64,000 nucleotides of DNA from Eledone cirrhosa (taxonomy: Eukaryota). The notes beneath the pieces were generated by a model that was given only the letters and a program-made list of their open reading frames with translations, was not told the origin of the DNA and made no database searches. Location: positions 75,888,001 to 75,952,000 of the forward strand of contig OZ024744.1 in the NCBI GenBank assembly GCA_964016885.1, in the 5' to 3' direction. The translations under genes and the position numbers were made by a program. This document shows, in pieces, positions 8,301 through 62,347 of this stretch (its first letter is position 1; the number at the start of each line of letters is the position of its first letter).

Positions 8301-8330
8301 AATGGGCCTTCTCTGAGTATGTGTCTGTAA
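5316..8330 (+). pseudogene. Tx1 ORF2 copy 2 with stops and a ~400-bp deletion
   Basis: MTSLRIGSINARGL APE start, SET, VYAP, GDWN motifs; RT broken by stop codons. Confidence 0.9.
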
Positions 8331-29768: not shown

Positions 29769-29852
<84 letters not shown>

Positions 29853-33117: not shown

Positions 33118-33159
<42 letters not shown>

Positions 33160-33703
33160 CGAAGGAAGTGTGGTAAGGAACCAGCTGAACTAAAACGCAC
33201 CAGAGTACTCGATACGTTGGATAGTAGAGAGGGTAATAGGAAAAGGTTCAAGACCCCCCCCCCTCTGACGACCATGCACACACACACACACACCATCTAT
33301 ATCTATAACTATCTATCTCTTTGTGCTCCTGTCGAGGGGCGTAGGTCACATATATTTATACATACGCATACACACGCATACACACACGCATGTTTATATT
33401 GGAGAAGAAAAAGAATATAATTATTCCATTCGCCAGGAGAACGTGGCTAACAACGGCTCCTTAAATTGCACAAATGCAAAATTGCTTACTTACAAACTAA
33501 GGGAGATAAACACTTCGATAATTTATTCAGTTATCTCCCTTATAATCTGTGTCTGTAATTTGTCATTTTAATTAGTGTATTTTTTTTTTAAATTAAAATA
33601 TAAAAGTTTATTCATGGAATATATAATGTAAATACAGTTTAATAGAAGAAAAAAAAGAAAATTTATATTAAGAAGAAAGAGTGGAATGTAAAATAGGGAA
33701 ATA

Positions 33704-36700
33704 TTGGTCTACCTGGCCATTTACAGTCCAGTGTATGGTCTACCTGGTCATTTACAGTCCAGTGTATGGTCTACCTGGTCATTTACAGTCCAGTGTATGG
33801 TCTACCTGGTCATTTACAGTTCAGTGTGTGGTCTACCTGGTTATTTACAGTCCAGTGTATGGTCTACCTCGCCATTTACAGTCCAGTGTATGGTCTACCT
33901 GGTCATTTACAGTCCAGTGTATGGTCTACCTGGTCATTTACAGTTCAGTGTGTGGTCTACCTGGTTATTTACAGTCCAGTGTATGGTCTACCTCGCCATT
34001 TACAGTCCAGTGTATGGTCTACCTGGTCATTTACAGTCCAGTGTATGGTCTACCTGGTCATTTACAGTTCAGTGTGTGGTCTACCTGGTTATTTACAGTC
34101 CAGTGTATGGTCTACCTCGCCATTTACAGTCCAGTGTATGGTCTACCTGGTCATTTACAGTCCAGTGTGTGGTCTACATGGTTATTTACAGTTCAGTGTG
34201 TGGTCTACCTGGTTATTTACAGTCCAGTGTATGGTCTACCTCGCCATTTACAGTCCAGTGTATGGTCTACCTGGTCATTTACAGTCCAGTGTATGGTCTA
34301 CCTCGCCATTTACAGTCCAGTGTATGGTCTACCTGGTCATTTACAGTCCAGTGTGTGGTCTACATGGTTATTTACAGTTCAGTGTGTGGTCTACCTGGTT
34401 ATTTACAGTCCAGTGTATGGTCTACCTCGCCATTTACAGTCCAGTGTATGGTCTACCTGGTCATTTACAGACCAGTGTATGGTCTACCTCGCCATTTACA
34501 GTCCAGTGTATGGTCTACCTCGCCATTTACAGTCCAGTGTATGGTCTACCTGGTCATTTACAGTCCAGTGTATGGTCTACCTTGTCATTTACAGTCCAGT
34601 GTGTGGTCTACCTGGTTATTTACAGTCCAGTGTATGGTCTACCTCGCCATTTACAGTCCAGTGTATGGTCTACCTGGTCATTTACAGTCCAGTGTATGGT
34701 CTACCTGGTCATTTACAGTCCAGTGTATGGTCTACCTGGTCATTTACAGTTCAGTGTGTGGTCTACCTGGTTATTTACAGTCCAGTGTATGGTCTACCTC
34801 GCCATTTACAGTCCAGTGTATGGTCTACCTGGTCATTTACAGTCCAGTGTATGGTCTACCTGGTCATTTACAGTTCAGTGTGTGGTCTACCTGGTCATTT
34901 ACAGTTCAGTGTGTGGTCTACCTGGTTATTTACAGTCCAGTGTATGGTCTACCTCGCCATTTACAGTCCAGTGTATGGTCTACCTGGTCATTTACAGTCC
35001 AGTGTATGGTCTACCTGGTCATTTACAGTTCAGTGTGTGGTCTACCTGGTTATTTACAGTCCAGTGTATGGTCTACCTCGCCATTTACAGTCCAGTGTAT
35101 GGTCTACCTGGTCATTTACAGTCCAGTGTATGGTCTACCTGGTCATTTACAGTTCAGTGTGTGGTCTACCTGGTTATTTACAGTCCAGTGTATGGTCTAC
35201 CTCGCCATTTACAGTCCAGTGTATGGTCTACCTGGTCATTTACAGTCCAGTGTGTGGTCTACATGGTTATTTACAGTTCAGTGTGTGGTCTACCTGGTTA
35301 TTTACAGTCCAGTGTATGGTCTACCTCGCCATTTACAGTCCAGTGTATGGTCTACCTGGTCATTTACAGTCCAGTGTATGGTCTACCTCGCCATTTACAG
35401 TCCAGTGTATGGTCTACCTGGTCATTTACAGTCCAGTGTGTGGTCTACATGGTTATTTACAGTTCAGTGTGTGGTCTACCTGGTTATTTACAGTCCAGTG
35501 TATGGTCTACCTCGCCATTTACAGTCCAGTGTATGGTCTACCTGGTCATTTACAGTCCAGTGTATGGTCTACCTCGCCATTTACAGTCCAGTGTATGGTC
35601 TACCTCGCCATTTACAGTCCAGTGTATGGTCTACCTGGTCATTTACAGTCCAGTGTATGGTCTACCTTGTCATTTACAGTCCTGTGTGTGGTCTACCTGG
35701 TTATTTACAGTCCAGTGTATGGTCTACCTCGCCATTTACAGTCCAGTGTATGGTCTACCTGGTCATTTACAGTCCAGTGTATGGTCTACCTGGTCATTTA
35801 CAGTCCAGTGTATGGTCTACCTGGTCATTTACAGTTCAGTGTGTGGTCTACCTGGTTATTTACAGTCCAGTGTATGGTCTACCTCGCCATTTACAGTCCA
35901 GTGTATGGTCTACCTGGTCATTTACAGTCCAGTGTATGGTCTACCTGGTCATTTACAGTTCAGTGTGTGGTCTACCTGGTCATTTACAGTCCAGTGTATG
36001 GTCTACCTCGCCATTTACAGGCCAGTGTATGGTCTACCTGGTCATTTACAGTCCAGTGTATGGTCTACCTGGTCATTTACAGTTCAGTGTGTGGTCTACC
36101 TGGTCATTTACAGTTCAGTGTGTGGTCTACCTGGTTATTTACACTACAGTGTATGGTCTACCTGGTCATTTACAGTCCAGTGTATGGTCTACCTCGCCAT
36201 TTACAGTCCAGTGTATGGTCTACCTGGTCATTTACAGTCCAGTGTATGGTCTACCTGGTCATTTACAGTTCAGTGTGTCGTCTACCTGGTTATTTACAGT
36301 CCAGTGTATGGTCTACCTCGCCATTTACAGTCCAGTGTATGGTCTACCTCGCCATTTACAGTCCAGTGTATGGTCTACCTGGTCATTTACAGTTCAGTGT
36401 GTGGTCTACCTGGTTATTTACAGTCCAGTGTATGGTCTACCTGGTCATTTACAGTCCAGTGTGTGGTCTACATGGTTATTTACAGTTTAGTGTGTGGTCT
36501 ACCTGGTCATTTACAGTCCAGTGTATGGTCTACCTGGTCATTTACAGTCCAGTGTGTGGTCTACATGGTTATTTACAGTTTAGTGTGTGGTCTACCTGGT
36601 CATTTACAGTCCAGTGTATGGTTTACCTGGCCATTTACAGTTCAGATTGTGGTCTACCTGGTCATTTACAGTTCAGTGTGTGGTCTACCTGGTTATTTAC

Positions 36701-38778
36701 AGTCCAGTGTATGGTCTACCTCGCCATTTACAGTCCAGTGTATAGTCTACCTGGTCATTTACAGTCCAGTGTATGGTCTACCTGGTCATTTACAGTTCAG
36801 TGTGTGGTCTACCTGGTTATTTACAGTTCAGATTGTGGTCTACCTGGTCATTTACAGTCCAGTGTATGGTCTACCTGGTCATTTACAGTCCAGTGTGTGG
36901 TCTACATGGTTATTTACAGTTTAGTGTGTGGTCTACCTCGCCATTTACAGTCCCGTGTATGGTCTACCTGGTCATTTACAGTCCAGTGTGTGGTCTACCT
37001 GGTCATTTACAGTCCAGTGTATGGTCTACCTAGTCATTTACAGTTCAGTGTGTCGTCTACCTGGTTATTTACAGTCCAGTGTATGGTCTACCTCGCCATT
37101 TACAGTCCAGTGTATGGTCTACCTCGCCATTTACAGTCCAGTGTATGGTCTACCTGGTCATTTACAGTTCAGTGTGTGGTCTACCTGGTTATTTACAGTC
37201 CAGTGTATGGTCTACCTGGTCATTTACAGTCCAGTGTGTGGTCTACATGGTTATTTACAGTTTAGTGTGTGGTCTACCTGGTCATTTACAGTCCAGTGTA
37301 TGGTCTACCTGGTCATTTACAGTCCAGTGTGTGGTCTACATGGTTATTTACAGTTTAGTGTATGGTCTACCTGGTCATTTACAGTCCAGTGTATGGTTTA
37401 CCTGGCCATTTACAGTTCAGATTGTGGTCTACCTGGTCATTTACAGTTCAGTGTGTGGTCTACCTGGTTATTTACAGTCCAGTGTATGGTCTACCTCGCC
37501 ATTTACAGTCCAGTGTATAGTCTACCTGGTCATTTACAGTCCAGTGTATGGTCTACTTGGTCATTTACAGTTCAGTGTGTGGTCTACCTGGTTATTTACA
37601 GTTCAGATTGTGGTCTACCTGGTCATTTACAGTCCAGTGTATGGTCTACCTGGTCATTTACAGTCCAGTGTGTGGTCTACATGGTTATTTACAGTTTAGT
37701 GTGTGGTCTACCTCGCCATTTACAGTCCCGTGTATGGTCTACCTGGTCATTTACAGTCCAGTGTGTGGTCTACCTGGTCATTTACAGTCCAGTGTATGGT
37801 CTACCTGGTCATTTACAGTTCAGTGTGTGGTCTACATGGTTATTTACAGTTTAGTGTGTGGTCTACCTGGTTATTTACAGTCCAGTGTATGGTTTACCTG
37901 GTCATTTACAGTCCAGTGTATGGTCTACCTGGTCATTTACAGTTCAGTGTATGGTCTACCTGGTCATTTACAGTCCAGTGTATGGTCTACCTGGTCATTT
38001 ACAGTCCAGTGTGTGGTCTACATGGTTATTTACAGTTTAGTGTGTGGTCTACCTGGTTATTTACAGTCCAGTGTATGGTTTACCTGGTCATTTACAGTCC
38101 AGTGTATGGTCTACCTGGTCATTTACAGTCCAGTGTGTGGTCTACCTGGTTATTTACAGTCCAGTGTATGGTTTACCTGGCCATTTACAGTTCAGATTGT
38201 GGTCTACCTGGTTATTTACAGTCCAGTGTATGGTCTACCTCGCCATTTACAGTCCAGTGTATGGTCTACCTCGCCATTTACAGTTCAGATTGTGGTCTAC
38301 CTGGTTATTTACAGTCCAGTGTATGGTCTACCTCGCCATTTACAGTCCAGTGTATGGTTTACCTGGCCATTTACAGTTCAGATTGTGGTCTACCTGGTTA
38401 TTTACAGTCCAGTGTATGGTCTACCTCGCCCTTTACAGTCCAGTGTATGGTTTACCTGGCCATTTACAGTTCAGATTGTGGTCTACCTCGTCATTTACAG
38501 TCCAGTGTATGGTCTACCTCGCCATTTACAGTCCAGCGTATGGTTTACCTGGCCATTTACAGTTCAGATTGTGGTCTACCTGGTCATTTACAGTCCAGTG
38601 TGTGGTCTACCTGGTTATTTACAGTCCAGTGTATGGTTTACCTGGCCATTTACAGTTCAGATTGTGGTCTACCTGGTCATTTACAGTCCAGTGTATGGTC
38701 TACCTCTCCATTTACAGTCCAGTGTATGGTTTACCTCGCCATTTACAGTTCAGATTGTGGTCTACCAGTTCAGTGTGT
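33704..38778. repeat. 31-bp satellite (TGGTCTACCTGGTCATTTACAGTCCAGTGTA), about 163 units, with higher-order repeats
   Basis: Direct; rare variants recur at 1085-bp and 775-bp spacing. Confidence 0.97.
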
Positions 38779-38944
38779 TGGCTGTTCCTCGAAGCTATTG
38801 TTGAACAAACGGATGATGACAGTCATCAAAACAAAGCATAGTCATCGAAACATAGCAGAGTGAGGATGTTTGCTTGCAAATGAATCGATTATTATTATCA
38901 TTATTATTATTATTGTTAATAAAGAAATCATTATTATTATTATT

Positions 38945-42730: not shown

Positions 42731-44855
42731 ATGGCTACGAAAAATAATTTTCATAGGTCACTCCCACTCATTCCGTCTTCTTCTTCCTCAATCGTCACTA
42801 CAGCAGAGAGAAGATTGTCCCTCTCCCTCCCTTCTCTAAATGTGTCTCTCTCCCTCCCTTCTCTTTCGCAAGCGACGCCAGAAAAGAAAAATCACGTGCA
42901 AAGCGAGCAAGATTTCTCCACGACGACGACGACAACGACGAAAAAGGTGTGCGGGAAATACGAAAACCCATTTCATTCGTCTGACCTCAGGAATAATAGC
43001 AGTAGCAGCCGTAATAACAGCAGCAGCAGCAACAGTGACTAGGAAAACAACAGTAGCAGCCGCAACAGCATCAGCATCAGCATAAACAACAACAGCATTA
43101 GCAGCAACAACAACAGCAGCAGCAGCACCAGCAGCAACAACAACAACAACCACAGCAACAGCGGCGGCGGCAGTAGTCGTAGTACCTGCAGCAACAACAA
43201 CAGTAACAGCAGCTCTGACGACAACAACAACCACAACAGCAGCAAAGAAAAATCAATCTCGTTTGCAGGTATCGCAAAGAACCTGGAAACCATCCTCATA
43301 ACAAATGAGGAATTAGAGGAAGCGAAGAAGATGGTGACAAAAACTGGACACCGAGCAACCTGCAAGGCAGTGGAACATTTTTTCGAAACCCAACAGCACT
43401 GTACGGTCACGTACCGTACAGTAAGTACAAAATCCCGTAGGGTTGAAAGATCCACAGAGGCTCAAATACAAAAAGCCCTGGGGTCTGTGTGGCAGCGGAA
43501 AACGCACATCACCCGAGGCAAGAAATATGCCACCGTAGACGTACTTTTTGCCACACCCCAGGAGGCAAAGGCTCAATCCTTAGTGACCCTAAGGAGCGAG
43601 GAAATGGTGTTGATGCCCTCCTACTGCGGGCAAAAATTGTGAAGGTCAAACTGACCCCCCCCCCCCGGGATGGCCCCTTCTTGGCTGGCCGCGTCTGACT
43701 CGTCGGAATCGAGGACAAAACAACTGTACTGCAAGTACAGAAAAAAGTAAGAGAAGATTGGGTCGGCACTTCCATTGAGATGTTAATCCAAACCAACCAG
43801 GAGTGCATCGAAGCTATCCCGGATGTGATAGACTTCGATAACGGCACTCAACTGCCCATAAGTGTTGAGGGCAAACGCCCGAAATGCTTTCGCTGTGGAT
43901 CGAAGACTCACCTCAGGGCCTTCTGCAACGAGAAGACCCTGAGAAAGGAGAAAACCCCCCTCCTTCCGAAACCGGCTCCACGGCTACCAGCAACAGGACA
44001 AGCGGCAACCAGGAACGATAGGTCCGTGGCACCCATACCCACGCCACGGAAATCAAAAACAGCAGCAGCAGTGGAAGTATTAACAACAACAACAGCAATA
44101 ACAAATGCAGCTGCAACAGAGACTCCAGTGCAAACATCACCAACAACAACAAGTGAAAGAGTGGAGCTGGTACCCCTCCCCGACCTCACAGAATCAGACA
44201 TGGAGTGTGAGGTGGGAGAGGGATGGCAAAAGGTCGTAAGAAGGCACAAACGCAGAGCAGCGCATCGTCGCCTTTGAAAAGGGAGGAGAGAAATGAAAAA
44301 AGGGTAAAGGCTATTGCAAAGAGACTCACAGCAGCAACACCACCAACACCACCACCACCCACACTAGCACCACCATCACCACCGGCGACAACCCAACCGC
44401 CAACAACACCTTCAACACCACCACCACAAGCACCAACATCGCAAACACAACAAAACACACACACCCAGCAACAACGACAAGAAAATAGCAGAACCACACC
44501 CCACCCCCAGAAAAACAAATGCACAGCAATAAATACACACAACAGAGAAACTAATGACTTACATAATTGAACACACAGACATTTCACAACACGACTACCA
44601 GCACCAATCAAAACGCCAACTAACATAAGACTGCTAAGAATAGCACAGAAACAATACCCAAACATTAAAACGAAATTCCCCAACGCTGTTGGTGATTTCA
44701 GAGACCTAGGAGGGACACTCAACGGAAGAGTATATTCGGACATACTCATAGAAGAGCCGACGCCCAGCCGAAGGGACGATTCAACGGTTCCTTCACCAGA
44801 CGATCAAGTGAAAAGTGATGGAAAAACCATCCTTCCTCTACGAAAAGTACGGTAA
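42731..44855 (+). pseudogene. Tx1 ORF1 type B, frameshifted
   Basis: Protein similar to type A (KSRRVERSTEAQIQKALG, TVDV.F.TP) but divergent. Confidence 0.8.
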
Positions 44856-44889
44856 GTGGTCTTTCCCATCTTTCCACTCTATTTTAAAC

Positions 44890-47800
44890 ATGACCTCACT
44901 CAGAATAGGCAGCATAAATGCGCGTGGCTTGGGGTCGTCATGGAAGCAGGGTCACCTGCTCAACGACCTCAGGTCACTAAACATAAATGTGGTGGCCATC
45001 AGCGAGACCAGAATCTCCGAAGCACGGGCCTTCGCACCGATCTTCGGCGGCTACGATGTGTACGCATCTCCCAGCCCTCCTGGATCGGGGGTGGGGTGGG
45101 AGTTGCTGTGCTTTTTCGGAGAGATTTGGATCTTCCTAGACCCAGAGGGTAAGTTGGTGGTGCTGGACGTGACCAGCGGAGATGGGCAAGCTTTCAGGCT
45201 AGTGGCCGTCTATGCCCCGACAGGAGCAGGGCGGCCTGATTTCTTCCGGCGTCTGGAGAACTTTCTTGGAACGTCCCGCTCTTTAGTGTTAGTGGGCGAC
45301 TGGAACGGGATCTTAGATGCACGCTGGGACTGTGTGGGATTAGAGGATAGGGGTGGAGGGTGCAAGAGCCTCACCAACCTGCTTAGGCGTTTTGAACTGT
45401 CTGACAGGTACCGATTGGATTTCCCGAATGTGCCAATGTGGACTTGGACAAATCGCATAGGGGTCATCCAGATCATATCTAGATAGAGTATTTTGTAGGG
45501 AAATAGATAGGTCTAGCATAGGCTGTCCACAATTCAAGATAGTCAGCTACACGGGCCACAAATTCGTGATCTGTGTGCTTGACTTAGATAGGCTTCATAG
45601 ACGAGGACCCGGCTACTGGAAGCTAAACGCGTCCTTACCAGCGCGCAAGGCCTACAGAGACCGGATTAGCGAACTAGTTTAGCGGGCGTTGACGGGGGCC
45701 ATCGTCAACAACAAGTAGTGGTTTGCTCTGAAAAGAGCGATTAGAATAGAATCCATTAGGTTTAGTAAGGCTTTAGCAAGAGAGAAAAATAGAGCAGAGG
45801 GTGAACTAGTTAAAAAATTAGACGAGGCGCTTAGCAAAGGCATCGCGACCGACGTACTTGCGGCGAAATTGGCCCTTGACCAATTCTTCAATGCAAAGCA
45901 CGAAGGCTGCGTTGTCAGAGCTAGGGTGCGTGCTCTCAGACACGAGGGGACGAAAGCCGTTCAATGGGCCCGAGTGGCGGAGGCGCGTCGTGGCAACAAA
46001 GCCACGATCCGGTCTTTGGTGGACCACGACGGGCGCATGCTACTCGATCCCGGGCAAATGTGTGAAGCTTTTCAGCGACACTTCTCTCAGCTGTTAGGGG
46101 GCAGCGGTGGGCCGGGTTGAGGGATGGACTTTAGTGTCTACCTCGACGGACAGCTGCGGCTCTCGGCCACTGAGGCGGAGTGGTGCGAAAAGCCGATAAC
46201 AGCCGCTGAAGTACGGGAGGCAATGACTGGCTGCACAAGGGGTAAATCGCCTGGTTTGGATGGTCTGCCCTATGAACTTTACGTACAGATGCCAGACTTG
46301 TTCGGAGGCCTCTTGGCGGACGTCTACTGCAACTGGCAACAGAACGGAAGAATTCCCAGTTCTGTGAGCCGAGGAGCAGTGGAACTGCTGAGAAAGGATC
46401 CGAACAAGGGGGATAACATAGATAATTTCAGGCCCATAACTCTGCTAAACACAGAGTTCAAGATTTTGGCCAAGGTGCTATCAAAGAGGTTGGCGCTTGT
46501 CGTTGGTGGTCTGGTAGGAAAGGCGCAGACATGCGCTATTCCCGACAGATCCATCCACGACAACCTCCACCTCATGCGATACATCGTAGAGAGTGTAGCT
46601 AGGGAACCTGGCACGGGTGGGTCTTTGATCAATTTAGATCAGTCGAAAACTTTCCATAGGTTCGACCATCGTTACCTAGCGGCAGTCCTGAGGGTGGCTG
46701 GCTTTGGGCCAGTCTTCAGAAGCTGGATCGCTGCTATGCACAGCGACATCTGCTCTGTGGTGAGAGTGAACGGTCACCTTTCGGAACCGTTCAACATCAT
46801 GCGCTCGGGCCGCCAAGGATGTCCCCTCTCGTCCCTATTGTACCTATTGACTCTCGAGCCATTACTGCACAAACTGGAGACGTTGATGGGCGTCCCGCGC
46901 GAACTAGGATGCGGAAGATCCGTGTCAGCATATGCGGACGATGTCACCGTAGTGGTGTCGAACGCCAAACACATCGAGGCGATCGGCACTACACTAAGAG
47001 AATACGAAGCGGTGACAGGAGCAATGATCAACCAGGAAAAGTCAGTGGGCCTGCAGCTCGGCACCTGGAGAGGCAGGTCCATGCCATCCAACAGCGTCGT
47101 CGGGTGCTGGACGGACGAAGCGGTTAAATTGCTAGGGGTCTGGTTCGGTCCGCCAGACGGACAAAAACTGGGACGAGGTGACGAGCAGGGTGGCTTCTCT
47201 CACCCAGAAATGGGCGGAGAGGAAGCTATCCCTGAAAGATCGAGCGGCGGTGGATAACGCGTACATCGTGTATGTCATCTGCTACCGCTTGACCGTCGTA
47301 CCTTGTCCGAAGCCCCGCCTGACTGCGCTGGAGCGTTTGCTCTTTCGGTTTTTGTGGAAGGGATGCGCTCCGATGGTCAGGCGGTCCATCTGCTGTCAAC
47401 ACCCGCTACCTGGTGGGCTGGGCATGCCGTGGCTGATGATGCGCAGACACGCGCTCAGGCTACGACATCTCCACCTCTTCCTCGACGGTGATCAGGTGTG
47501 GTCGCCGTTTGCTAGACACGTTTTTCCCCAGCTCGTTTCCTTGACGGAGCTGCAGTCCTGGGTCAAGCGAAGACCGAGAGGGAGCGCCTGGAGACTGGAA
47601 TGTCTTCAGGCGCTCACAGCCCTCGACCAATCGGGCAATGTGATCGGTAGAAACTCTACCTCGGCGTTCTATAGAGGATTAGTGGAGGGGAAGAGCGACG
47701 ACGTACTTGGGGAAACTCTAGGCGTCGACGAAAATCAACTAGCCAATCTCTTTGGAAGAACTTTCGGGCCGGGACCTATGGACAACTTCCAGAAATCTCT

Positions 47801-48293
47801 GGCCTGGCAGTGCTACCGAGGAGCCTTGCCAGTTCGGCATAAACTCTACAGGCATGGAGGTGCCGTCAGCCGGACATGTCCGAGATGCGCGCAGGGCGAC
47901 GAAACCGTCCTGCACGCACTCGTCCAGTGTCCGAAAATTGCTGACTTGTGGGTTTATGTCGAACACCTGCTGTCGCGTGTAGGACGGATCCGGCTATCAT
48001 CTGAGTCCATCGTGAGGATTGCCCCGCCCTCCTCCTTTAGCCTGGAGGGGCAGGCAGATTTTATCTGTCTGGTGGCCATGGCCAAAGAGATAGTATGGTG
48101 GACACGTTTGAAAGGGCTGAAGACGAGCACTTACCTCTTCGGTGATGCCCTGATTAACTTTTTCAAATTTCATTTGAAAAGGAAAATCAGGGTAGAGAGG
48201 GAAGTGCACTCTTCCCAGCATTTTGTTGAAAGATGGGTGAGAGAAGCAAGAATGGCCCGAGTGAATGGGCCTACTCTGAGTACGTATCTGTAA
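44890..48293 (+). pseudogene. Tx1 ORF2 copy 3 (APE-RT-zf), disrupted
   Basis: ORF fragments 44815-45486, 46124-47257, 47178-48293. Confidence 0.9.
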
Positions 48294-48567
48294 ATTAAAG
48301 GTGGAAAACTGGGAGAGGGCACTTGCCTTGGTGGTCAGGGTCACTGTGGCCTTTTACTGGGCTTTCTCCACAAATGTCCCTCCGAAGTCTCCCCCCTATT
48401 GGGGAATTTTTCATTGTTATTTTTTTGTTACATCCTCTGTTTTTGTTTTTTCACGCAGAAATGCCAATTTGTACTGTCCTGTATTGTCCTGCACTGTCCT
48501 TAATGTCTACTTTGTGTAAACCCTTGTGGTTAATAAAGAAAGCATTATTATTATTATTATTATTATT

Positions 48568-51500
48568 GGCGACCTACCTAGGAAATCGTATTATCGTGAG
48601 ATCCGCAAAGGTTTGTTGTTTTCAGTTGTTTCAAATTGCCTGTTATGGAAAATTTTTGTTGTTAAGTGTTTATAAGTTCACATATATTGCTTTCTGAAAA
48701 GGACACAAAACAACAAAAAAAGAAATTATTATTTTGTGACATCGGAATGGATTCATCCAGAATCGACTCTTCCACGCCGAACACCACTGACACCACCACC
48801 ACCTCCACCACAGCTGAAACTATAAATAACAATAACAACAACAGCAACAACAAAACAACAATCATAATAACAACAACAACATCAACACCACCGCAAAACA
48901 AAATGTGTCGTTTGCCAAAGCAGCCAAGAAAAGCGAAACAATCGAGGTAAGCCAGGATGAATTAAATGAAGCCAAGTGAATGGTAAAAAAAGCTGCGTAC
49001 AGGGTCAGCCCCCCCACACACACCTAATAAAATGGAGCATCGGCGCCTATGCACCGTGTCATATCGGATTATAAACACAAAATCACGCCGAGTGGAACGG
49101 GCATCCGAGTCGCGAATACAAAAAGCTTTGGGACATGTGTGGGGAAAAAACCCCACATCAGACGTGGGCAGAAATGTGGAACTGTGGACGTGTTCTTTGA
49201 AACACCACAGGAAGCCAGAGAGCACTCCATGGCCCGATTAAGAAGTGACGACTTCACACGTCCCAAGCTATTGTGGTCAGAGTCTCGTGTAGATCAGGGT
49301 GACCCACGTTCCACCGGCCATCGAAATTCCCTGGCTAATGGCTACCGTCCTCGCCGGCATCGAGGCCAATACGAAAATATTGAAGTAACAAAAGAAAAGC
49401 AGGAGAACTGGTCCGGATCTGGGATGGAGCTCCTGATCCAAGCGGACCAAAAAACAGTGAGGAAATTCCAGAGGTGATAGACCTCAATGACGGTAGCCAC
49501 CTCACCGTAATCGTTGAGGGTAGAAGGCCTAGGTGTGTCGTTTGTAGTGAAGGAACCCACCTAAAGTCTTTCTGCCCTCAGGCTAGAAAGTTGAGGCCAC
49601 GTCGCTTGTCCACCCCAGTGACTCAACCATCAACACCACCAGCAGTAGAAATGGCAGCAACAACTGTAGTAGCAACAACAGAAGCAACTGTAGCAGCAAC
49701 AACCCCAGCAACAGTAGCAAAACCACCACTACCACCACCGTGCTAGAATTAGCACCAGCGCCTCCACCAAACTCCACGCCACAACCAAAATCACCGCCTG
49801 TGGAGGATTTTCCACTCCCCGACGTATCGCAACTGGAGACAGATTGTGACGACGAGGAGTGGGAAACTGTATCAGGAAAAAAGAAAAAAAGAAAAAGAAT
49901 CCGAAATGAAGAAATTCTCTTCCTTCACCCTCCAAAAACAAAACACGGGGGGAAACAAATAAACAAACAAACAAAAAAGTTAAGACAGCTATACCACCAT
50001 CTACACCAGCATCACCAACCCCATCACCACAAACACTAACACCATCACCGTGATTAACCCCAACACCATCATCACCTACACCACAAAAGTCACCAAAAAG
50101 CGAAACAAAAACAAACCCACAACAAACGCAAACAAAACAAAACAACCAAAACGATACACACGACACAGCATTACATTTGAACAACAACCAATTACTACAC
50201 TACATCCAACACAACACCAGCATCACAGAAAAAGACTTCACAACACCCCAAACATTCACACCACCTTCACACATACAAAATCACTCACATCACACAGAAA
50301 ACGTACATGACACTAACACAAAAATTCCCCAAAGACATCGGAGACTTCCAACAAAGGACATCCTTCCGGAGGAGGCCACAAGCAGTGAAAAGGATGGAGA
50401 GACCATCCTTCCTCTACGAGAAGGTAAGTGATCTTTCCCTTCTTTCCCACTCGATTTCAACATGACCTCACTCAGAATAGGCAGCATAAATGCGCATGGC
50501 CTGGGGTCGTCATGGAAGCAGGGCCACCTGCTCAACGTCCTCAATCACTAAACATAGATGTCGTGGCCATCAGCGGGACCAGAATCTCCGAAGCACGGGC
50601 CTCCGCACCGATCTTCGGCGGCTACGATGAGTACGCATCTCCCAGCCGTCCTGGATCGGGAGGAGAAGATGCTGTGCTTTTTCGGAGAGGTTTGGATCTC
50701 GCCATACGGGCCATCTTCTTGGACCCAGAAGGTAAGTTGGTGGTGCTGGACGTGACCAGCGGAGACGGGCAGGTTTTCAGGCTAGTGGCCGTCTATGCCC
50801 CGACAGGAGCAGGGCGGCCTGATTTCTTCCGGCGTCTGGAGACCTTTCTTGGAACATCCCGCTCTTTAGTGTTAGTGAGCGACTGTAACGGGATCTTACA
50901 TGCACGCTGAGCTTGTGTGGGATTAGCGGATAGGGGATAAGGGTGCGAGTGCCTCAACAACCTGCTCAAGCGTTTTTAAATGTCTGACAGGTACCGATTG
51001 GATTTCCTGAATGTGCCAATGTGGACTTGGACAAACCGCTTCGGGTCATCCAGATCATATCTAGATAGAGTATTTTGTAGGGAAATAGATAGGTCTAGCA
51101 TAGGCTGTCCACAATTCAAGATAGTCTGCTACACGGACCACAAATAAGTGATCTGTGTGCTTGACTTAGATAGGATTCATAGACAAGGACCCGGCTACTG
51201 GAAGCTAAACACGTCATTAACAGCGCGCAAGGCCTACAGAAACCGGATTAGCGAACTAGTTAAGCAGCGTTGACGGAGGCTATCGTCAACAACAAATGGT
51301 GGTTTGCTCTGAAAAGAGCGATTAGAATAGAGTCCATTAGGTTTAGTAAGGCTTTAACAATAGAGAAAAATAGAGCAGAAGGCGAACTAGTAAGAAAATT
51401 AGACGAGGCGCTTAGCAAAGGCATCGCGACCGACGTATTTGCGGCGAAATTGGCCCTTGACCAATATTTCAATGCAAAGCACGAAGGCTGCGTTGTCAGA

Positions 51501-53785
51501 ACCTGGGTGCGTGCTCTCAGACACGAGGGGACGAAAGCCGTTCAATGGGCCCGATTGGCGGAGGTGCGTCGTAGCAATAAATCCACGATCCGTTCTTTGG
51601 TGGACCACGACGGGTGCATGCTACTCGATCCTCGGCAAATTTGTGAAGCCTTTCAGTGGCACTTCGGGGGCAGGGGTGGGCCGGATCGAGGGATGGACTT
51701 TAGTGTCTATCTCGACGGACTGCCGCGGTTCTCGGCCGCTGAGGCGTAGTGTTGCGAAAAGCCGATAACAGCAGCTGAAGTACGGGAGGCAATGACTGGC
51801 TGCACAAAGGGTAAATCGCCTGGTTTGCCCTATGAACTTTACGTACAGATGCCAGACTTGTTTGTAGGCCTCTTGGCGGACGTCTTCTGCAACTGGCAAC
51901 AGAACGGGAGAATTCCCAGCTCTGTGAACCGAGGAGATATGGCGCTGCTGAGAAAGGATCCGAACATAGATAATTTCAGGCCCATAACTCTGCAAAACAC
52001 AGAGTTCAAGATTTTGGCCAAGGTGCTAGCAAAGAGGTTGGCGCTTGTCGTTGGTGGTCTGGTGTGAGTGCCGCAGACGTGCGCCATTCCCGACAGATCA
52101 ATCCACGACAACCTCCACCTCATGCGATACATCGTAGAGAGGGTAGCTAGGGAACCTGGCACGGGTGGGTCCTTGATCAATTTAGATCAGTCGAAAGCTT
52201 TCGATAGGGTCGACCATCGTTACCTAGCGGCAGTCCTGAGGGCGGCTGGCTTTGGGCCCGTCTTCAGAGGCTGGATCGCTGCCATGCACAGCGACATCTG
52301 CTCTGTGGTGAGTGTGAACGGTCACCATTCTGAAGCGTTCAACATCATGCGCTCGGTCCGCCAAGGAATTCCCCTCTTGTACATATTGACACTCGAGCTA
52401 CTACTGCACAAACTACAGACGTTGAGGGGGGGGGGGTCCCGCGCGAACTAGGATGCGGAAGATCCGTGTCAGCATATGCAGATGATGTCACCGTAGTGGT
52501 GTCGAACGCCAAACACAACGAGGCGATCGGCACTACACTAAGAGAATAAGAAGTGGTGACAGGAGCAATGATCAACCAGGAAAAATCGGTGGGCCTGCAG
52601 CTCGGCACCTGGAGAGGCAGGTCCATGCCATCCAACAGCGTCGTCGGGTGCTGGACGGACGAAGCGGTTAAATTGCTAGGGGTCTGGTTCGGTTCGGACC
52701 TCCAGACGGACAAAAACTGGGACGACGTGACGAGCAGGGTGGCTTCTCTCACCCAGAAATGAGCAGAGAGGAAGCTATCCTTGAAAGGTCGAGCGGAGGT
52801 GGCGAATGCGTACATCGCGTCCGTCATCTACTACCGCCTGACCGTCGTGCCTTGTCCTAAGCCTCGCTTGACTGCGCTGGAGCGTTTGCTCTTTCACTTT
52901 TTGTGGAAGGGACGCGCTCCGATGGTCAGGCGGTTCATCTGCTGTCAACACCCGCTACGTGGAGGGCTGGGCATTCCGTGGCTGATGATGCACAGACACG
53001 CGCTCAGGCTACGACATCTCCACCTCTTCCTCGACGGTGATCAGGTATGGTCACCGTTTTCTAGGCGCGAAGACTGAGAGGGAGCGCTTGGAGACTAGAA
53101 TGTCTTCAGGCGCTCACAGCCCTCGACCAATCGGCCAATGTGATCGGTGGATACTCCACCTTGGCGTTCTATAGAGGATTAGTGGAGGGGAAGAGCGACG
53201 AGGTACTTGGGGAAACTCTAGCCAATCTCTTCGGAAGAACTTTCGGGCCGGGGCTATCACAACTTCCAGAAATCCCTGGCCTGGCAGTGCTACCGAGGAG
53301 CTTTGCCAGTTCGGGTTAAACTCTACAGGTATGGAGGTGCCGTCAACCGGGAATGCCCGAGATGCGCGCAGGCGACGAAACTGTCCAGTGTCTGAGCATT
53401 GCTGACTTGTGGGTTTATGTCGAACACCTGCTGTCGCGTGTAGCATGGATCCGGCTATCAGCTGAGTCCATCGTGAGGATTGCCCCGCCTTCTTCCTTTA
53501 GCCGGGAAGAGCAGGCAGTTTTTATCTGTCTGGTGGCCATGGCGAAATGTATAATATGGTGGACGCGTTTGAAAGGGCTGAAGACGAGCACTTCGGCGAT
53601 GCCCTGATTAACTTTTTCAAATTTCATTTGAAAAGGTAAATCAGTGTGGAGAGGTAAGTGCTCTTTTTCCAGCATTTTTTTTGAAAGATGGGTGAGAGAA
53701 GCAAGAATGGCCCGTGTGAATGGGCCTACTCTGTGCCTGTAAACTGAAGGTGCAAAACTGGGAGAGGGCACTTGCCCTGGTGGTC
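48568..53785 (+). mobile_element. Tx1-like copy 4 (type A), more degraded; 3' UTR cut off by a PLE
   Basis: Starts GGCGACCTAC after the copy 3 tail; ORF2 remnants 50462-53742; ends GCCCTGGTGGTC|. Confidence 0.9.
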
Positions 53786-53792
53786 ATTTCAG

Positions 53793-53903
53793 GTATTAAC
53801 AATTGTTTCATTGATCAGGTGAGTCTAGAGGCCGCTAATCGCTCGAAGTTGCGTCACTCGATCTCCATTACATTATTTACCTCTGATCAAATCCTCCGAA
53901 TAC
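53793..53903 (-). ncRNA. pLTR hammerhead (family h), core mutated to CGGAGGA
   Basis: Copy of 57190-57300. Confidence 0.55.
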
Positions 53904-56900
53904 AGATAATTCATACATGGCATGATATAAATAGAGAAATAGCGTAGAATCAAAACAATAACAGTAATAATAACGTATACGATAAATAGGTAAAGAAGTT
54001 ACAGATGTAAAAAGTAAAAAGTAAGAAAAAAGATACAAGAAAAAAACTAAGAAAATGGAAAAATAATAAAAATATAAATAAATAAGGATAAATGAGAGCA
54101 TATATGTACAGAATATGATAGTGGTGGTGGTGAGTAAGTGTCCGTATAAAGATGCTGTGGTGGATTTAGTGCTAACATGAAAAGCCATATTCGAAACGTA
54201 CATAGATACGTGTAGAGAATCTGAGGTAGTGACAGATAAAAGAAAAAACAATAAATAAAAAATCAATTGGGAGATACTAGTATGAGACCCAAGGGCTAAG
54301 GGTGGATGGTGAAGGAGGGGGGTTGACAAGTGTGTGGGGTAAATGTTTTGCTGATTGTCTTGTCTTATTGGGGTTGATGTGGTTTCAGGGAGAGAGGGTG
54401 AAAGATATGTTAAGAGATTTATCATCTAGTGACCAGTCGGCTGTTTGACAGCTAATAGCGGCGTGATGGTATGTATTCCGTACGTTAAAATCCAGGTGGT
54501 TCAGTTCTAATTTTGGGATTGCTGGGTCGAATCACGGTGGTTTGAAATTTGTGAACTTGGTAGCTATTTTATACTTACAGAAAATTGATCTTTCTATTTT
54601 GCTGTTAAGCAGCATCTTATCGTACCTTAAAATATGGAGTAGCTCCATATTGCAAAGTCTGCAGTGGGACATTCCATTGTCGTAGGCCCTTGCTCTCGAT
54701 AATTTTGACCAGCTAATCCTATATTCCCGAGTTTGTGCTTTTAAGCTGCCAGATTTTATTGGCGAGCGTTGTAGAGTTCTCCAGTCTAAGGTTCTTCATG
54801 GAGTGTCTGTGAACGTACCATCTTTATTTGAATTCCCCAGCCGTGGAACCTATGTAGTGCCAAGTAAAGTTGCCTGAATTTATAGTACACAGGTACACCA
54901 TACTTGAATCCAGGCATTTATTTTGTAGTGGGCACTTATCCGGTAGGTGGCAGTTACAGTTGGAGGATTTTCTGGTTCTCCATTGCGGTTTTGTATGTTG
55001 TTATGGGTGGGTTGAGATTTAGGCCTATTAATGTTTTGTTGTGATGCACCTTGATGTGTGTGTGGTTGCGATTTGTTATGTGTTTGCATTTTGTATTTGG
55101 TACTATGGTGTATGTTGGTAGCCTATTTTATTTAGAGATATTTTTGTGGTTGATTTTATGTATGTGTGATTCTATGTTGGCTGCAGTAGAGTAAGATAGT
55201 TTGATAGTTCTTCTATTAAAGATTCTCTGGTATTTGTGAAGTTTAGGGATGTGTTTGTCGATTAGCTTAAAGAATGTAGAAGGTAGTTTGGTTTTTATAG
55301 AGGAGTTGAATATTGGATTGAACCATAAATATTTTCTATCTCTGGATCCTCTGTAGTTCCTAGGGATCCTTATAATTAGTGTTCGGTTCAGTTATTTTTG
55401 GTGCTCGTCTATTTCTATGTTTAGTCCTATGTTTGTTATTTCTATAGGTGTGGGTAGTGTAGTTGTCGTTAGGTTTGTTGCTGCTGTCTCTATCTGCTAT
55501 GTATTCGAGCCCCTCTTAATGTAAAGCTATGTTATAATAGATTGCGTGTTCGTTAAAAATCTCTAGGTTAGAATATAGGCGGGATATTCTGAGGGATATA
55601 CTATGTGCTATGGAGTTAATTATGGATCGGAGTGGTTTGAGTTATAACTAATGTAGGCTAGATTCTCGTTATTTTTATGGAAGGGCTCTATTAATCCTGT
55701 GTTTAGGTTGAGTGTTACATCTAAGAAGTTTGCTTTTTTAGAGTTAAGTTCGAAAGTGATACCTAGGCCTAGTGTGTTGAAGAAGACTCTGATGTTTTTC
55801 CGTAATTTTTCCATGTTTTGATTATTTAAGTCTTTGGCTAAAAGGAGTGTATCGACTCTATAAATTCCTCCATGGAGGTTATTAAATTCCTTATGTAAGT
55901 TGTGCGCTATATATATTCCCACTAAGTCTGTTACCTGTGTTGAGTCGTTAGATCCCATTGTGATATCGAAGCTATTCTGTCTGGGTTTTTTTCGTTCCCA
56001 GTAACTATCTTCGAATCTAATGATAGTTATCTTAGCAGCTAGTATTATTCTAATTTCCTCAGAGGATAGGTCCGAGTTTTTCTGGGCAAAGGTTAGCGCT
56101 TTATCTAGGGTAACGGGGGTTATGGAGAAGTAGTAGTCATTAATGTCAAACTGTACGAAGTTGGATGTTCCCAACTGTCTATTTTGCTGAACCAGTCTAT
56201 TGCTTCGTTAGTGTTACCCCCATGGCTTAATTACTAGTTTGTCCTTGATTTGTGCGATTACTCTATCTAGTATATACTTGCTAATTCTACCTATATCCGA
56301 CTTCGATGGGCATATTAATCTAATTGTGGGGTCTGTTTCGAAATTATTTTTGTGATCCTTTAGGATAAATGTGGGGTTGCAAGGGGTTAGAGGCTCGGTT
56401 CTATCAGATATTTTCAGTTCTTTTACTATGCTAAACCCTTCCTTATTAATGCTAGTGAGTGCAGATTATGTAGTTTTCTTGTATTTTTTGTGCAGTTCAC
56501 GGCGTATAAAGTTATTGTATGTATTAAGGCTCATGGTGTATACGTTTGATGTTTTGTCCGCTTTTACTATAATACCGTTGGTGTTGCGTAGTTTTTTTAG
56601 TAGTGCATTGATGTCGTTTTGCAGTTTGTTGTGATGGGTCCGTTTTTTAAATTTGGTTCCACTTATCATGTTCATGAGCTCGAGTCGAAGGCATTGAGCT
56701 GGGTGTTATTCGGTGTTACTGGGTGTTATTCGGATTTGAATCCGTATTTTTCCCTAGTAAATTCCTCTGTGTTATTAGTGTGCCCCTTATCGTAATTATA
56801 GGCCATCCATCGGATTCGACGGATGAAGTCGTTAGTACGCTGTATCGTACCGGGTGTATAGTCCTTGTTTGTAGGTATAGGTATGTTTTTCAAGGACATG

Positions 56901-57189
56901 CCTATGTGGTGCTTTTCCATGTTAGTGCCGTGCGTTAAGGTTGTTGCTCAACCTAGTGGGAGCTGGGTATATGGGATAACAAGTTATCGTTATAGGTAAT
57001 CCAGTTAGAGGTTGTGAGTACTCTGCGTCGTGGATAGTTTTAACGTACGGTTTTGTTTGACTCAACAAGATGTTTCCATAGTTAGGCAGCGAGTTCGCGG
57101 TAATTCGTATGCAGGTTATACTTGGAGTAATAATAGTGAAAGAATGAAGAGTAACATGGTTGGCTGTACAACAAGGAGCTTTATTTCAG

Positions 57190-57300
57190 GTATTAACAAT
57201 TGTTTCATTGATCACTTGAGTCTAGAGGCCGCTAATCGCTCGAAGTTGCGTTACTCGATCTCCATTACATTATTTACCTCAGATCAAATCCTCAGAATAC
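57190..57300 (-). ncRNA. pLTR hammerhead (family h) with long loop II insert
   Basis: GTATT-CTGAGGA-tTTGATC...GATCAAt-GAAA-CAATTG-TT-AATAC. Confidence 0.75.
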
Positions 57301-57333
57301 AGATAATTCATACATGACATGATATATATATAG

Positions 57334-57404: not shown

Positions 57405-57467
57405 GACAAACTACAAACTACAATAGAACATTTTTAAAAGACTCCAGTTGCATTTTCAATTTATTTT

Positions 57468-57583
<116 letters not shown>

Positions 57584-58664: not shown

Positions 58665-58728
<64 letters not shown>

Positions 58729-58819
58729 CGAAGGAAATGTGGTAAGGAACCAGGTGGACCATAACGCACCAAAGTACTCAATACTTGAGGTAGTAGAGTG
58801 GGTAATAGGAACCAGTAAG

Positions 58820-58913
58820 ACCCCGACAGCTGAGCTCAAGCCGTTTCGACGGCTAATTCTGGACTAAATGAAAATTTATCCTGGTATTTAAATAGCCGAT
58901 CTTCTCAAGGGGT
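58820..58913 (-). ncRNA. Type I hammerhead, U3-A8 core variant (family i)
   Basis: Inverted copy of 60316-60409. Confidence 0.75.
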
Positions 58914-60315
58914 AATTCCATATATGGTCAAAGTGATTGTCAAAAATCAGTAGTAATTCTGTGGTTGCAAATTAGTAGGGGAGATGGTGGCTAAACCTGC
59001 CAGTAGGAGAAAGAGGGGAGGGGGTGGAGTAGACCCAATCAAGCGTTGGTAGTGCCAGCTACATTTATGCTCGGAGGAAACTTTACAAATGCTGTTTTCG
59101 ACGGACCAACTCCTAAACAAGAAAGATGAACTGGTTACTGCATGTAAACATAGATTGCGTAGGACTTACCTCGCCCTCAAACCCCATAATGACCCGGGGG
59201 GGGGGGGGTAGACTAGGGCTATAACACCCCAGTTGCCGATTTTGCAATGGGTAACCCCTGCTTGCCAAGGAAGACGTAAGATCTTCTTTGTATTCTTTTA
59301 TCGCTTCCTTTATTTCCTTCCCCCCTCTCTCCTTTGTCCTTCTACCCCAGCTCTTCTTCTTTGTCGGCGTCTTTTCTCGCCCACCCGAGGCTGCCCTTTG
59401 GCCCCATGTAGCCTTAGTACCCCCACCCCCCCTCCCCTAGTCTTTGATAGATTTGGCGGACTCCGCCCTTTATAGCAGTTGGCTTAGACCCCGGATACTT
59501 TCCCCCTTTTTCCGACCGCTCCCACTATTCTCTGTGCCCTCTATATTTCTTAGTGGCACATGCCTTATTTTTTCGTTTCAGTATTTCTTGCTTCGCTTTT
59601 CTTCTGGGCGGGGTGGATTCTGAATTTATTTCTCCGTATTCTACCTTTATTTCGTACGAACTTTCATGTAGCTTGTTTTAGATCTTTTAGAGTTAGCATT
59701 AGTATATATTTTTCTCGGGACTCAGAATTATTATCTCGTACAAGTTCACTTTGCTGCACTGGGTCGTTGCTGGCCCGGGATGGAAACCTTTATTGTTTAT
59801 TTCGTGGTAGTCTCTTTAGTATTTTGGCCTCTTTTGTTGACCCGTCACCGTATCATTTACGTACTTATACCTCTTAAAAGGGTCCTTGCCTTATCCGTCC
59901 CACCTAGTTCTCTTACTTATTTCCTTATTTATTTATTTATTTATTTATTTACTTCTTTCTTTCTTTCTTTATTTTATTCTCGCCTAACAATAGCCTGACA
60001 CCTAGGTCGTAGAATTTAATTTACTTTACTTTTTTCTTTACACTTATTTGCTTTTCTTCACTCTCAGTATTTTTTCTTTCCTATTTCTACCCCCCATTGT
60101 TCTACCTACCGTTCCGACTTCCTCCCCCTCCCCCTCCCCTGTATCTTCTTTGACCTCATGCCCAGCTGTAGCTGGCACTACCAACGCTTGATTGGGTCTA
60201 CTCCACCCCCTCCCTCTTTCTCCTACTGGCAGGTTTAGCCACCATCTCCCCTACTAATTTGCAACCACAGAATTACTACTGATTTTTGACAATCACTTTG
60301 ACCATATATGGAATT

Positions 60316-60409
60316 ACCCCTTGAGAAGATCGGCTATTTAAATACCAGGATAAATTTTCATTTAGTCCAGAATTAGCCGTCGAAACGGCTTGAGCTCAGC
60401 TGTCGGGGT
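60316..60409 (+). ncRNA. Type I hammerhead, U3-A8 core variant (family i)
   Basis: ACCCC-TTGAGAA-GAtCGGCTA...TAGCCGTC-GAAA-CGGCT-tgagctc-AGCTG-TC-GGGGT. Confidence 0.75.
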
Positions 60410-60419
60410 CTTACTGGTT

Positions 60420-60510
<91 letters not shown>

Positions 60511-60979: not shown

Positions 60980-62075
60980 GTTAAAAGGTGAAAGTACTAC
61001 AAACATTAGAGATATTATGATTTAGAGCTATTATTATAGTGCAAATATAAATTGTTAAAAACGATAGGATCATTTTGAAGGAATATTATAAATTACACAT
61101 AGTTCTGAATGTAGAATTTTGGCGATGTCTGCAAGAATTAAATAATTCTGTTCTGAGATTAATAGAGTTTTGACAGTTAATTATATAAACATTTCTTCAA
61201 TACACAATTTACAGAATTTTGATAAAGCCATATTTCGGTGCGCAGGTTCTTCTGAAATCGTTTTCCAAGATATTGAATAGTCTATATTCTTGCTTTTTAA
61301 GTTCCACATAACATGTGGAAGAAAGGTAGAAGATTTTTCATCGGATCTTCTAAAAGAATGATTGTGGTTAATCCAGCGACCTTTAAATTTTGTAGAAGTG
61401 GCACCGACTTAGTTAAATATATTATCACAAGTTTTAACTATGCATTTATAGACTACATTTTTATCTAAACACTTATTTTGTAAAGAGCAGTTTGATTTGA
61501 TTCTACAGTTACATTTTACGGAGTTGTTGTTGCTCGGAACGGTACTATTGTGTTGGTTATTGCTAGAAATATTATTATTGCTATTTTTGTTAGGGTTTAA
61601 ATTTAAGTTTCTATTATTAATTCTATTTATATTTTGTGCTATGTCTGTTAAAGATTGAGTGGCATCTGTTGGCTTTAGGAAAACATTTGTCTAGTGCTTT
61701 AAAGAATAGTTTTGTTAAAGGTGTTTTAACGCTTAATGAGAATGGGGTGTGAGTACCAAATAATATTTCTAGTTCTAGTTCTTTTGTTTGGTTTAGAGTT
61801 TAAGTTAAATTGTTTATTATTATTATAATTATCACTAGGGTGATTTGCCATGTTATTGTTGTCAATGTATTTAATTGTATTCGAATACCCTGCTCTATTT
61901 AAAGCTTCATTAAAATATTCAGCCTTATCATCAAAAATATTTTTATTAGCAGGGATGCGTGAAATTCGTTGTTGGACACTATTGACAATAGTATTCTTAA
62001 TAGATCTAAGATGATTAGAGTTAAAACTTACGTAATTTAGATTCTCACTCATTAATTTTATGGAAAGGATAATAA
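60980..62075 (-). mobile_element. AT-rich Penelope-like 3' fragment (RT thumb plus GIY-YIG)
   Basis: ENLNYVSFNSNH, RISRI, TRNIIWY; CNCR..CSLQNKCL and CKLCIEE in the 61200-61520 remnants. Confidence 0.8.
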
Positions 62076-62187
62076 AGCCCCTATTTACTCCAGAAATTTG
62101 TAGAGTGCTCTGAATCAGTTATAAACATTTATATTTGTTGAATTTCCAACAAATTAAATATCCCTTCCACTTATATATATATATATG

Positions 62188-62259: not shown

Positions 62260-62266
<7 letters not shown>

Positions 62267-62347
62267 AAAAAGGGATGAAATCGAAAATGCAACTGAAGTC
62301 TTATAAGACTTCAGTTGCATTTTCGATTTCATCCCTTTTTCTTTATA
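62260..62347. repeat. Perfect 88-bp spacerless palindrome
   Basis: ...GCAACTGAAGTCTTA|TAAGACTTCAGTTGC... Confidence 0.9.

What the first reader, a model, noticed from the sequence alone, without database searches (positions are those of the whole stretch)
58805..60423. Hammerhead with U3-A8 core on both arms of a fold-back element
Seen: core TTGAGAA instead of CTGANGA, with 5-bp stem I, long stem II, a stable stem III with self-complementary TGAGCTCA, and a GUC site; identical in both arms. Known: positions 3 and 8 pair in the active hammerhead, so C3-G8 to U3-A8 is compensatory. Standard CUGANGA searches would miss it. About 1.1 kb of non-coding DNA lies between the arms.
Basis: partly seen in the sequence, partly recalled or inferred. 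Interest (0 to 1): 0.7.

Follow-up and report, generated by a model that had tools for sequence, protein, structure and literature searches.

The report
Penelope retrotransposon copies record ribozyme cuts
This is a broken, head-to-head copy of a young Penelope-type jumping gene whose self-cutting RNA motif carries an already published core variant; hundreds of its sister copies begin exactly at the predicted cut, which likely records the ribozyme working in the animal.

Summary
The hammerhead is real and identical in both arms; U3-A8 core, predicted cut after 60404, and it is the lowest-energy fold. The element is not a separate non-coding fold-back family. It is a 5'-truncated copy plus an inverted end of a young Hydra-clade Penelope-like retrotransposon (3,543-bp unit, 719-aa ORF, about 70 intact copies seen, over 10,000 end fragments), inserted in (TA)n. 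The true left end is 58725, and 59065-59211 is coding. U3-A8 hammerheads in Penelope elements were published in 2014. 2,120 of 2,172 cores of this subfamily have it, so it is inherited, not local compensation.

Two additions. Genome-wide, arms start sharply at the first base after the predicted cut (256, against 28 two bases earlier and 18 one base later), likely a fossil of in vivo cleavage. The lineage ran U3-A8, then a C3·A8 mismatch (1,068 cores), then U3-A8 again, and the mismatch copies still show that peak at a lower rate. This scan noted similar elements and end pile-ups before on other DNA. New member of a known kind; interest 0.4.

The parts
58668..58724 (.). (TA)n target microsatellite, left flank
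   Evidence: sequence; Hydra-clade elements prefer (TA)n (PMC8557442)
58725..58804 (-). 80-nt 'tail' of the pseudo-LTR (pLTR positions 116-195), present on this arm only; long 3' end, likely the downstream reverse-transcription start
   Evidence: one long and one short end in 32 of 37 long inverted insertions
58820..58913 (-). Hammerhead, left arm; core TTGAGAA 58908-58902; predicted cut between 58825 and 58824
   Evidence: identical to the right arm
58725..59063 (-). Inverted 5'-truncated copy: last 144 nt of the 3' UTR plus pLTR with tail; 335 of 335 tested bases (58729-59063) identical to an intact copy
59063..59063 (.). Head-to-head junction; one base (A) is shared by both copies
59065..59211 (+). 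Last 48 codons of the RT-endonuclease ORF (end of CxxC, E, N, CxH motifs); a G-run expansion changes the last residues
   Evidence: 97.9% identity over 47 aa
59212..60309 (+). Long pyrimidine-rich 3' UTR of the parent element
   Evidence: 98.2% identity of 59063-60424 to an intact unit
60316..60409 (+). Type I hammerhead with U3 (60321) and A8 (60326), 54-nt stem-loop II, 6-bp stem III with palindromic loop, GUC site; predicted cut after 60404
60362..60367 (+). TTAGTC inside loop II; A60364 (pLTR 55) is the likely transcription start (inferred)
   Evidence: 5' ends of arms pile up at pLTR 55-61; TTAGT is nearly invariant across subfamilies while the rest of loop II varies; likeness to an initiator motif is recalled
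60422..60424 (+). Short 3' end (pLTR 115); TAT shared with the target, likely the upstream reverse-transcription start
   Evidence: 49 of 56 partner arms end here
60425..60510 (.). (TA)n target microsatellite, right flank

Best explanation
The locus is a protein-less insertion of a young Hydra-clade Penelope-like retrotransposon, made of two head-to-head 5'-truncated copies of the element's 3' end in a (TA)n tract, each carrying the family's inherited U3-A8 hammerhead, which likely self-cleaves after GUC in the element's RNA. Shown: parent element, copy numbers, end positions, core states, subfamily order. Inferred mechanism: the element's protein nicks both strands of a (TA)n tract. It starts reverse transcription inside the RNA at two sites (pLTR 115 and 195), one per strand, and the two cDNAs are joined head to head wherever they stop. 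Starts in the downstream pLTR give long copies like this one. Short copies stop at physical RNA 5' ends: mostly the transcription start (pLTR 55), and in a few per cent the ribozyme cut (pLTR 96). A perfect 3-8 pair is likely not required for the element to multiply.
For: Parent: tandem 3,543-bp units with a 719-aa ORF. About 70 of the 150 best-scored N-terminal matches lie in open frames of 770 aa or more (counted by eye). Window copy 98-100% identical. Hydra motifs RWR, DKT, CxCx5C, no CCHH, CxxC-E-N-CxH (against paper section); by eye clearly alike to Hydra-1_Obim in the supplement. Inverted truncated copy and one-sided tail are the described PLE layout. Two internal RT starts and cutting of both strands were shown for an anole PLE. 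One long plus one short end: 32 of 37 long insertions; 49 of 56 partner arms of tailed arms end at 115. Cut-site peak: arms with two foreign bases before position 96: 256; before 94: 28; before 97: 18. Before 95: 177, of which 81 of the first 100 listed are blunt CCC/GGGG head-to-head joins. 20 of 22 inspected 96-starts are true truncations. 27 of the first 50 of 191 mini-hairpins have both arms at 96 (by eye): about 100 observed against about 15 expected if arms stopped independently. Position 7 varies (G/T/A/C) and loop II varies, while U4, G5, A6, A8, A9 and GAAA are invariant and stems I-III are mostly invariant in 20 copies from seven subfamilies.
Against: No raw RNA reads were available, so neither the start nor the cut is seen in RNA. 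The mismatch-core (C3·A8) lineage also shows the 96 peak: 203 starts against 17,377 uncut arms, versus 256 against 14,680; mini-hairpins 104 versus 191; 22 of the first 50 have both arms at 96. Its tails point to the C3·A8 copies themselves. A core expected to be nearly dead in vitro (recalled) should not do that, unless helped by protein or cut in trans. Blunt CCCCGGGG joins can also be read as ends at 95 with a 2-bp overlap. For the anole PLE no RNA-seq reads ended at the cut and ribozyme mutants inserted normally. Stems show conservation but almost no compensatory change in this close lineage (1 of 26 pairs). Pfam and PDB gave no hit for the ORF, so the RT and GIY-YIG domains rest on motifs and homologues.
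Confidence: 0.82

Rival explanations
1. The element is as described, but the hammerhead is vestigial or barely active. The peak of ends at position 96 comes from reverse transcriptase stalling or switching at the GGGG run or at the foot of stem III.
For: The peak persists in the C3·A8 lineage at roughly 40-65% of the rate. That lineage amplified to more than 17,000 arms with a mismatched core. Ribozyme mutants did not impair insertion in vitro for another PLE.
Against: The peak is one base wide and sits on the predicted cut. A stall at stem III would be expected to copy C95 too (inference). Both arms co-terminate about 7 times more often than independence predicts. The rate is lower where stem III is stronger (G-C in place of G-U). 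The core and stems are conserved and only position 7 drifts; the lineage returned to U3.
Confidence: 0.2
2. A non-autonomous fold-back or retrozyme-like element with its own fixed structure, mobilised by a separate partner.
For: Long, near-perfect inverted arms and no complete ORF at this locus.
Against: All of it aligns to one autonomous unit, ORF end included. Junctions differ in every long insertion examined (L067-L083), so there is no fixed internal structure. No tandem array of short monomers was seen at this locus.
Confidence: 0.03
3. U3-A8 arose at this locus or recently in this subfamily by double compensation from C3-G8 and was homogenised between the arms.
For: A neighbouring PLE family has canonical CTGAGGA. 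Another family in the genome shows both TTGATAA and CTGATGA relatives.
Against: 2,120 of 2,172 cores share it. The most diverged relatives found (77-89% protein identity) also have U3-A8. Only 2 of the 28 G8 matches in both subfamily groups are C3-G8.
Confidence: 0.02

Closest known systems
Hydra clade of C-terminal-endonuclease Penelope-like elements (Craig et al. 2021, PMC8557442), e.g. Hydra-1_Obim
   Same: Single ORF with RT and C-terminal GIY-YIG-like domain; RW(K/R), DKT, CxCx5C linker, no CCHH, CxxC and CxH around E and N; (TA)n targets; hammerhead in the pLTR; tandem and inverted insertions with a one-sided tail.
   Different: Unit is 3.5 kb with a 1.1-kb 3' UTR (Hydra generally under 3 kb). 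Tail is 80 nt (30-40 described). The two Hydra hammerhead rows I saw in the supplement have C3-G8 cores and short stems II and III.
U3-A8 minimal hammerheads of Schistosoma mansoni Cercyon PLEs (Cervera and De la Pena 2014, PMC4209133)
   Same: U3-A8 core in a PLE pLTR, about 1,300 hits, short helix I, larger helix II, pairs of motifs on opposite strands.
   Different: Those lack a stable helix III and are very heterogeneous. This one has a 6-bp stem III, folds as a monomer in prediction, has a 54-nt stem-loop II and is nearly invariant.
Poseidon element of Anolis carolinensis, PAc (Frangieh et al. 2024, PMC11167929)
   Same: AT-rich targets, two internal RT starts that define the tail, hammerhead in the pLTR.
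   Different: Different clade and a C3-G8 core overlapping the ORF start. No RNA ends were found at its cut site, whereas here genomic copies pile up at the cut.

Membership tests
Hydra-clade PLE | Single ORF, RT followed by C-terminal GIY-YIG endonuclease | tested here: met
   719-aa ORF in intact copies with QFDI, SMGA, YRDD, FLD and VIY...YIG at 591-608; 2,027 homologues at E<=1e-20 among 7,997 scored; Pfam and PDB silent
Hydra-clade PLE | RWK and DKT motifs, CxCx5C linker, no CCHH, CxxC and CxH around E and N | tested here: met
Hydra-clade PLE | (TA)n insertion preference, pLTRs, tandem and inverted copies with tail | tested here: met
Hydra-clade PLE | Placement in an RT phylogeny with reference clades | not tested
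   reference proteins were seen only in a paper supplement and compared by eye
Type I hammerhead ribozyme | Three-helix junction with core (C/U)UGAN(G/A)A, GAAA, U16.1-H17 | tested here: met
   the hammerhead fold equals the MFE; no Rfam hammerhead hit
Type I hammerhead ribozyme | Watson-Crick pair between positions 3 and 8 | tested here: met
   U60321-A60326; 2,120 of 2,172 in this subfamily. Not met in 1,068 of 2,208 sister cores
Type I hammerhead ribozyme | Self-cleavage after H17 | not testable with these tools
   indirect support only: peak of genomic 5' ends at the first base after the cut; no raw RNA reads
Type I hammerhead ribozyme | Loop I - loop II tertiary contact | tested here: inconclusive
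   stem I extends past a 6-nt bulge in the MFE, but bulge and loop II vary between subfamilies with little covariation
Non-autonomous fold-back / retrozyme element | Fixed non-coding structure shared by many copies, no ORF-derived interior | tested here: not met
   interior is ORF end plus 3' UTR, and junctions differ between insertions

The most novel reading that the evidence does not exclude
The genome holds a fossil record of a Penelope ribozyme cutting in vivo: hundreds of insertions begin at the first base after GUC. The master lineage also went from U3-A8 to a C3·A8 mismatch and back while multiplying, and its RNA was still cut at the same bond at about half the rate. That implies the element's protein, or a U3-A8 sister RNA pairing through the palindromic loop, rescues a core that should be dead.
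Probability: 0.45. Interest if true: 0.65.

Novelty: new member of a known kind. Interest (0 to 1): 0.4.

Why it matters
Whether Penelope hammerheads cut in vivo, and whether transposition needs them, is open: the 2014 paper had no in vivo evidence, and the 2024 paper found no RNA ends at the cut. Here a young family with many intact copies gives a base-precise genomic signal at the predicted cut. It also gives a natural series of cores (U3-A8, C3·A8, U3-A8) on one lineage that can be assayed side by side. The U3-A8 variant itself and the inverted layout are already known.

Tried and rejected
Rfam scan: no hammerhead model matched. DNA search of the genome with the arm found nothing because common words are skipped; patterns worked. 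Pfam and PDB searches of the ORF: no hits. Sequencing runs: six listed, all contigs; the one RNA run laid a single 140-nt piece, so nothing can be said about expression. Two guessed patterns for a sister subfamily gave 1 match each. Control for cut-site hairpins in the neighbouring C3-G8 family: 0 matches, uninformative because that family's copy number is unknown. Covariation in the stems: 1 of 26 pairs, too close a lineage to be informative. The first tree (360 nt around the ribozyme, positions 3 and 8 masked; 50 of 102 usable rows, subfamily A cut to 11 rows in the tree) showed the C3·A8 copies as one group but had no outgroup; the endonuclease-region tree replaced it. I first hoped the 96-starts in the mismatch group came from its U3-A8 minority; a tail marker rejected that. 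Literature searches. None of the passages I read describes genomic 5' ends at a PLE hammerhead cut or a C3·A8 subfamily, but Przybilski and Hammann 2007, Lunse et al. 2017 and Martick and Scott 2006 could not be read, and the supplements of the 2014 and 2024 papers were not opened.

Full report
Observation. The window is G000:C28:75888001-75952000 of a 3.0-Gb genome. Arms 58805-59063 and 60167-60424 are inverted and identical except for one C indel outside the ribozyme. The right arm reads stem I ACCCC, core TTGAGAA, a 54-nt stem-loop II closed by G10.1-C11.1, GAAA, a 6-bp stem III with palindromic TGAGCTCA, GUC, and GGGGT. The predicted cut is after 60404. The MFE fold is this hammerhead fold, with pair probabilities 0.48-0.98, although the energy is not unusual (z -0.46) and Rfam gives no hammerhead hit. 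I number the pseudo-LTR (pLTR) from 60310 = 1: core 12-18, C17 = 95. Both ends run into (TA)n through a shared TAT.

What it is. The stem III 27-mer has 10,939 exact copies. Full cores lie in tandem arrays with a 3,543-bp period. One unit holds an intact 719-aa ORF starting about 190 nt after the predicted cut. About 70 of the 150 best-scored matches to its N-terminus lie in open frames of 770 aa or more (by eye). The window element is unit 2297-3658 on the plus strand (98.2% identical, mostly homopolymer indels) joined with one shared base to unit 3400-3738 on the minus strand (335 of 335 tested bases identical). So 59065-59211 is the end of the endonuclease and the rest is 3' UTR. The protein has RWR, DKT, a CxCx5C linker, no CCHH, and CxxC and CxH around E and N. 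These are the listed marks of the Hydra clade of Penelope-like elements (PLEs), which also prefer (TA)n (PMC8557442 section 11). By eye it is alike to Hydra-1_Obim in that paper's supplement. Pfam and PDB gave no hit; 2,027 unnamed or hypothetical homologues did. This copy cannot make protein.

The core. 2,120 of 2,172 matches with a free 7-nt core are TTGAGAA, and none is C3-G8. The variant is published. Cervera and De la Pena found U3-A8 in Schistosoma Cercyon PLEs, about 1,300 hits, and pairs of motifs on opposite strands (PMC4209133, parts 1-2 of 4 read). Perreault et al. report natural U3-A8 and cite earlier in vitro activity (PMC3088659, passages). The inverted truncated copy and one-sided tail are the described PLE layout (PMC8557442, passages).

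History of the core. Sister subfamilies (2,208 cores) include 1,068 with a C3·A8 mismatch. G8 occurs in only 28 matches in both groups together, 2 of them C3-G8; those placed in the tree are scattered singly. A tree of the endonuclease region (29 rows, midpoint root) has the most diverged copies, all U3-A8 where a core was found, on one side (100/100). Next comes a ladder of C3·A8 copies, then U3-A8 again (100/99), ending in the youngest subfamily, to which the window copy belongs. The order depends on that root, and recombination between subfamilies was not tested. Across 20 copies of seven subfamilies position 7 and loop II vary, while U4, G5, A6, A8, A9 and GAAA are invariant and the three stems mostly so; compensatory changes are nearly absent, 1 of 26 pairs.

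Ends. 3' ends fall at two places, 115 and 195. 32 of 37 long inverted insertions have one of each (crude classifier), and 49 of 56 partner arms of tailed arms end at 115. This fits the two internal RT starts and cutting of both strands shown for an anole PLE (PMC11167929, parts 1-2 of 4). In 70 tail-anchored insertions (70 of the first 100 listed), 41 tailed arms and 42 of 56 partners begin at 55-61, and only 4 and 5 at 51-54. Position 55 is the A of a conserved TTAGTC, likely the transcription start (inference). RNA from there lacks the 5' core and folds a hairpin over GAAA, so only the read-through downstream pLTR holds a whole ribozyme.

Cut-site peak. Arms preceded by two foreign bases number 256 at position 96, the first base after GUC, 28 at 94 and 18 at 97. 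The 97 pattern excludes a C two bases upstream, about half of the first 100 hits at 96, so the fair ratio is nearer ten-fold. At 95 there are 177, but 81 of the first 100 are blunt CCC/GGGG joins of two arms, readable as 96/96 or as 95/95 with a 2-bp overlap. 20 of 22 inspected 96-starts are true truncations. Of 191 mini-hairpins, 27 of the first 50 have both arms at 96, often with a few added A/T between (by eye): about 100 against about 15 expected for independent stops. The simplest reading is that both cDNAs ran off an RNA whose 5' end was made by the ribozyme.

Against that reading. The group dominated by C3·A8 also peaks at 96: 203 starts against 17,377 uncut arms versus 256 against 14,680 (p 3e-5); mini-hairpins 104 versus 191 (p 1e-10); 22 of the first 50 with both arms at 96. 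5 of 30 inspected were not truncations, and a tail marker assigns those with tails to the C3·A8 lineage, not to its U3-A8 minority. Either the mismatch core still cuts at a reduced rate, helped by protein (reported for the anole ribozyme) or in trans through the palindromic loop (the stem III strand is predicted to dimerise, -26.3 versus -4.9 kcal/mol), or the peak is an RT stall. That single 3/8 mismatches nearly abolish activity is shown for other substitutions; for C3·A8 it is recalled, as the primary papers were not held. No raw RNA reads exist for a direct test, and a control in a neighbouring family was empty.

Verdict. The locus is an ordinary truncated-plus-inverted copy of a new Hydra-clade family with a known core variant: new member of a known kind. 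The value lies in the family: a base-precise genomic trace at the predicted cut and a natural U3-A8, C3·A8, U3-A8 series, neither of which I found in the passages read (searches). Other papers seen as passages only: PMC6765202, PMC3884650, bioRxiv 10.64898/2026.07.22.740005. The scan's earlier notes record similar elements in this and other genomes; none matched this sequence. Interest 0.4.

Noticed in passing
window 53780-57330 (-): A near-complete, frameshifted Hydra-like PLE of another family (38-56% protein identity in pieces) with two direct pLTRs; one has a canonical CTGAGGA hammerhead with a long stem II and a minimal palindromic stem III, the other CGGAGGA.
   Followed up: partly
window 21700-21780 (-): An unrelated hammerhead with a U3-A8 core (TTGATAA) and palindromic loop III; relatives in fetched loci include a CTGATGA (C3-G8) version (L161), i.e. 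covariation within that family.
   Followed up: partly
window 33141-33257 (-): A stub of an older relative of the same lineage (83-85% identical) whose match begins at pLTR 96, the predicted cut.
   Followed up: partly
window 62260-62347: Perfect 44-bp hairpin in (TA)n from another abundant repeat family (36 related pieces in the fetched loci); both arms start just after an A-run of the longer copies. A related piece lies at 57437-57472.
   Followed up: partly
window 28844-30879 (-) and 61130-62106 (-): Two further PLE ORF remnants with RT and GIY-YIG parts.
   Followed up: no
G000:C1:91489170-91492740 (L065-L066): A 55-bp piece of the ORF is repeated about 65 times in tandem at the junction between an array of the element and its inverted copy, possibly repeated template slippage or an assembly effect.
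   Followed up: no
L134:300-400 (G000:C1:93.31 Mb): Another family with a U3-A8 hammerhead, a long stem II and palindromic loop III.
   Followed up: no
window 1-8330 and 43000-53750: Several decayed copies of a non-LTR retrotransposon (AP endonuclease and RT motifs recognised from recall), and a long tandem repeat at 33670-38860.
   Followed up: no
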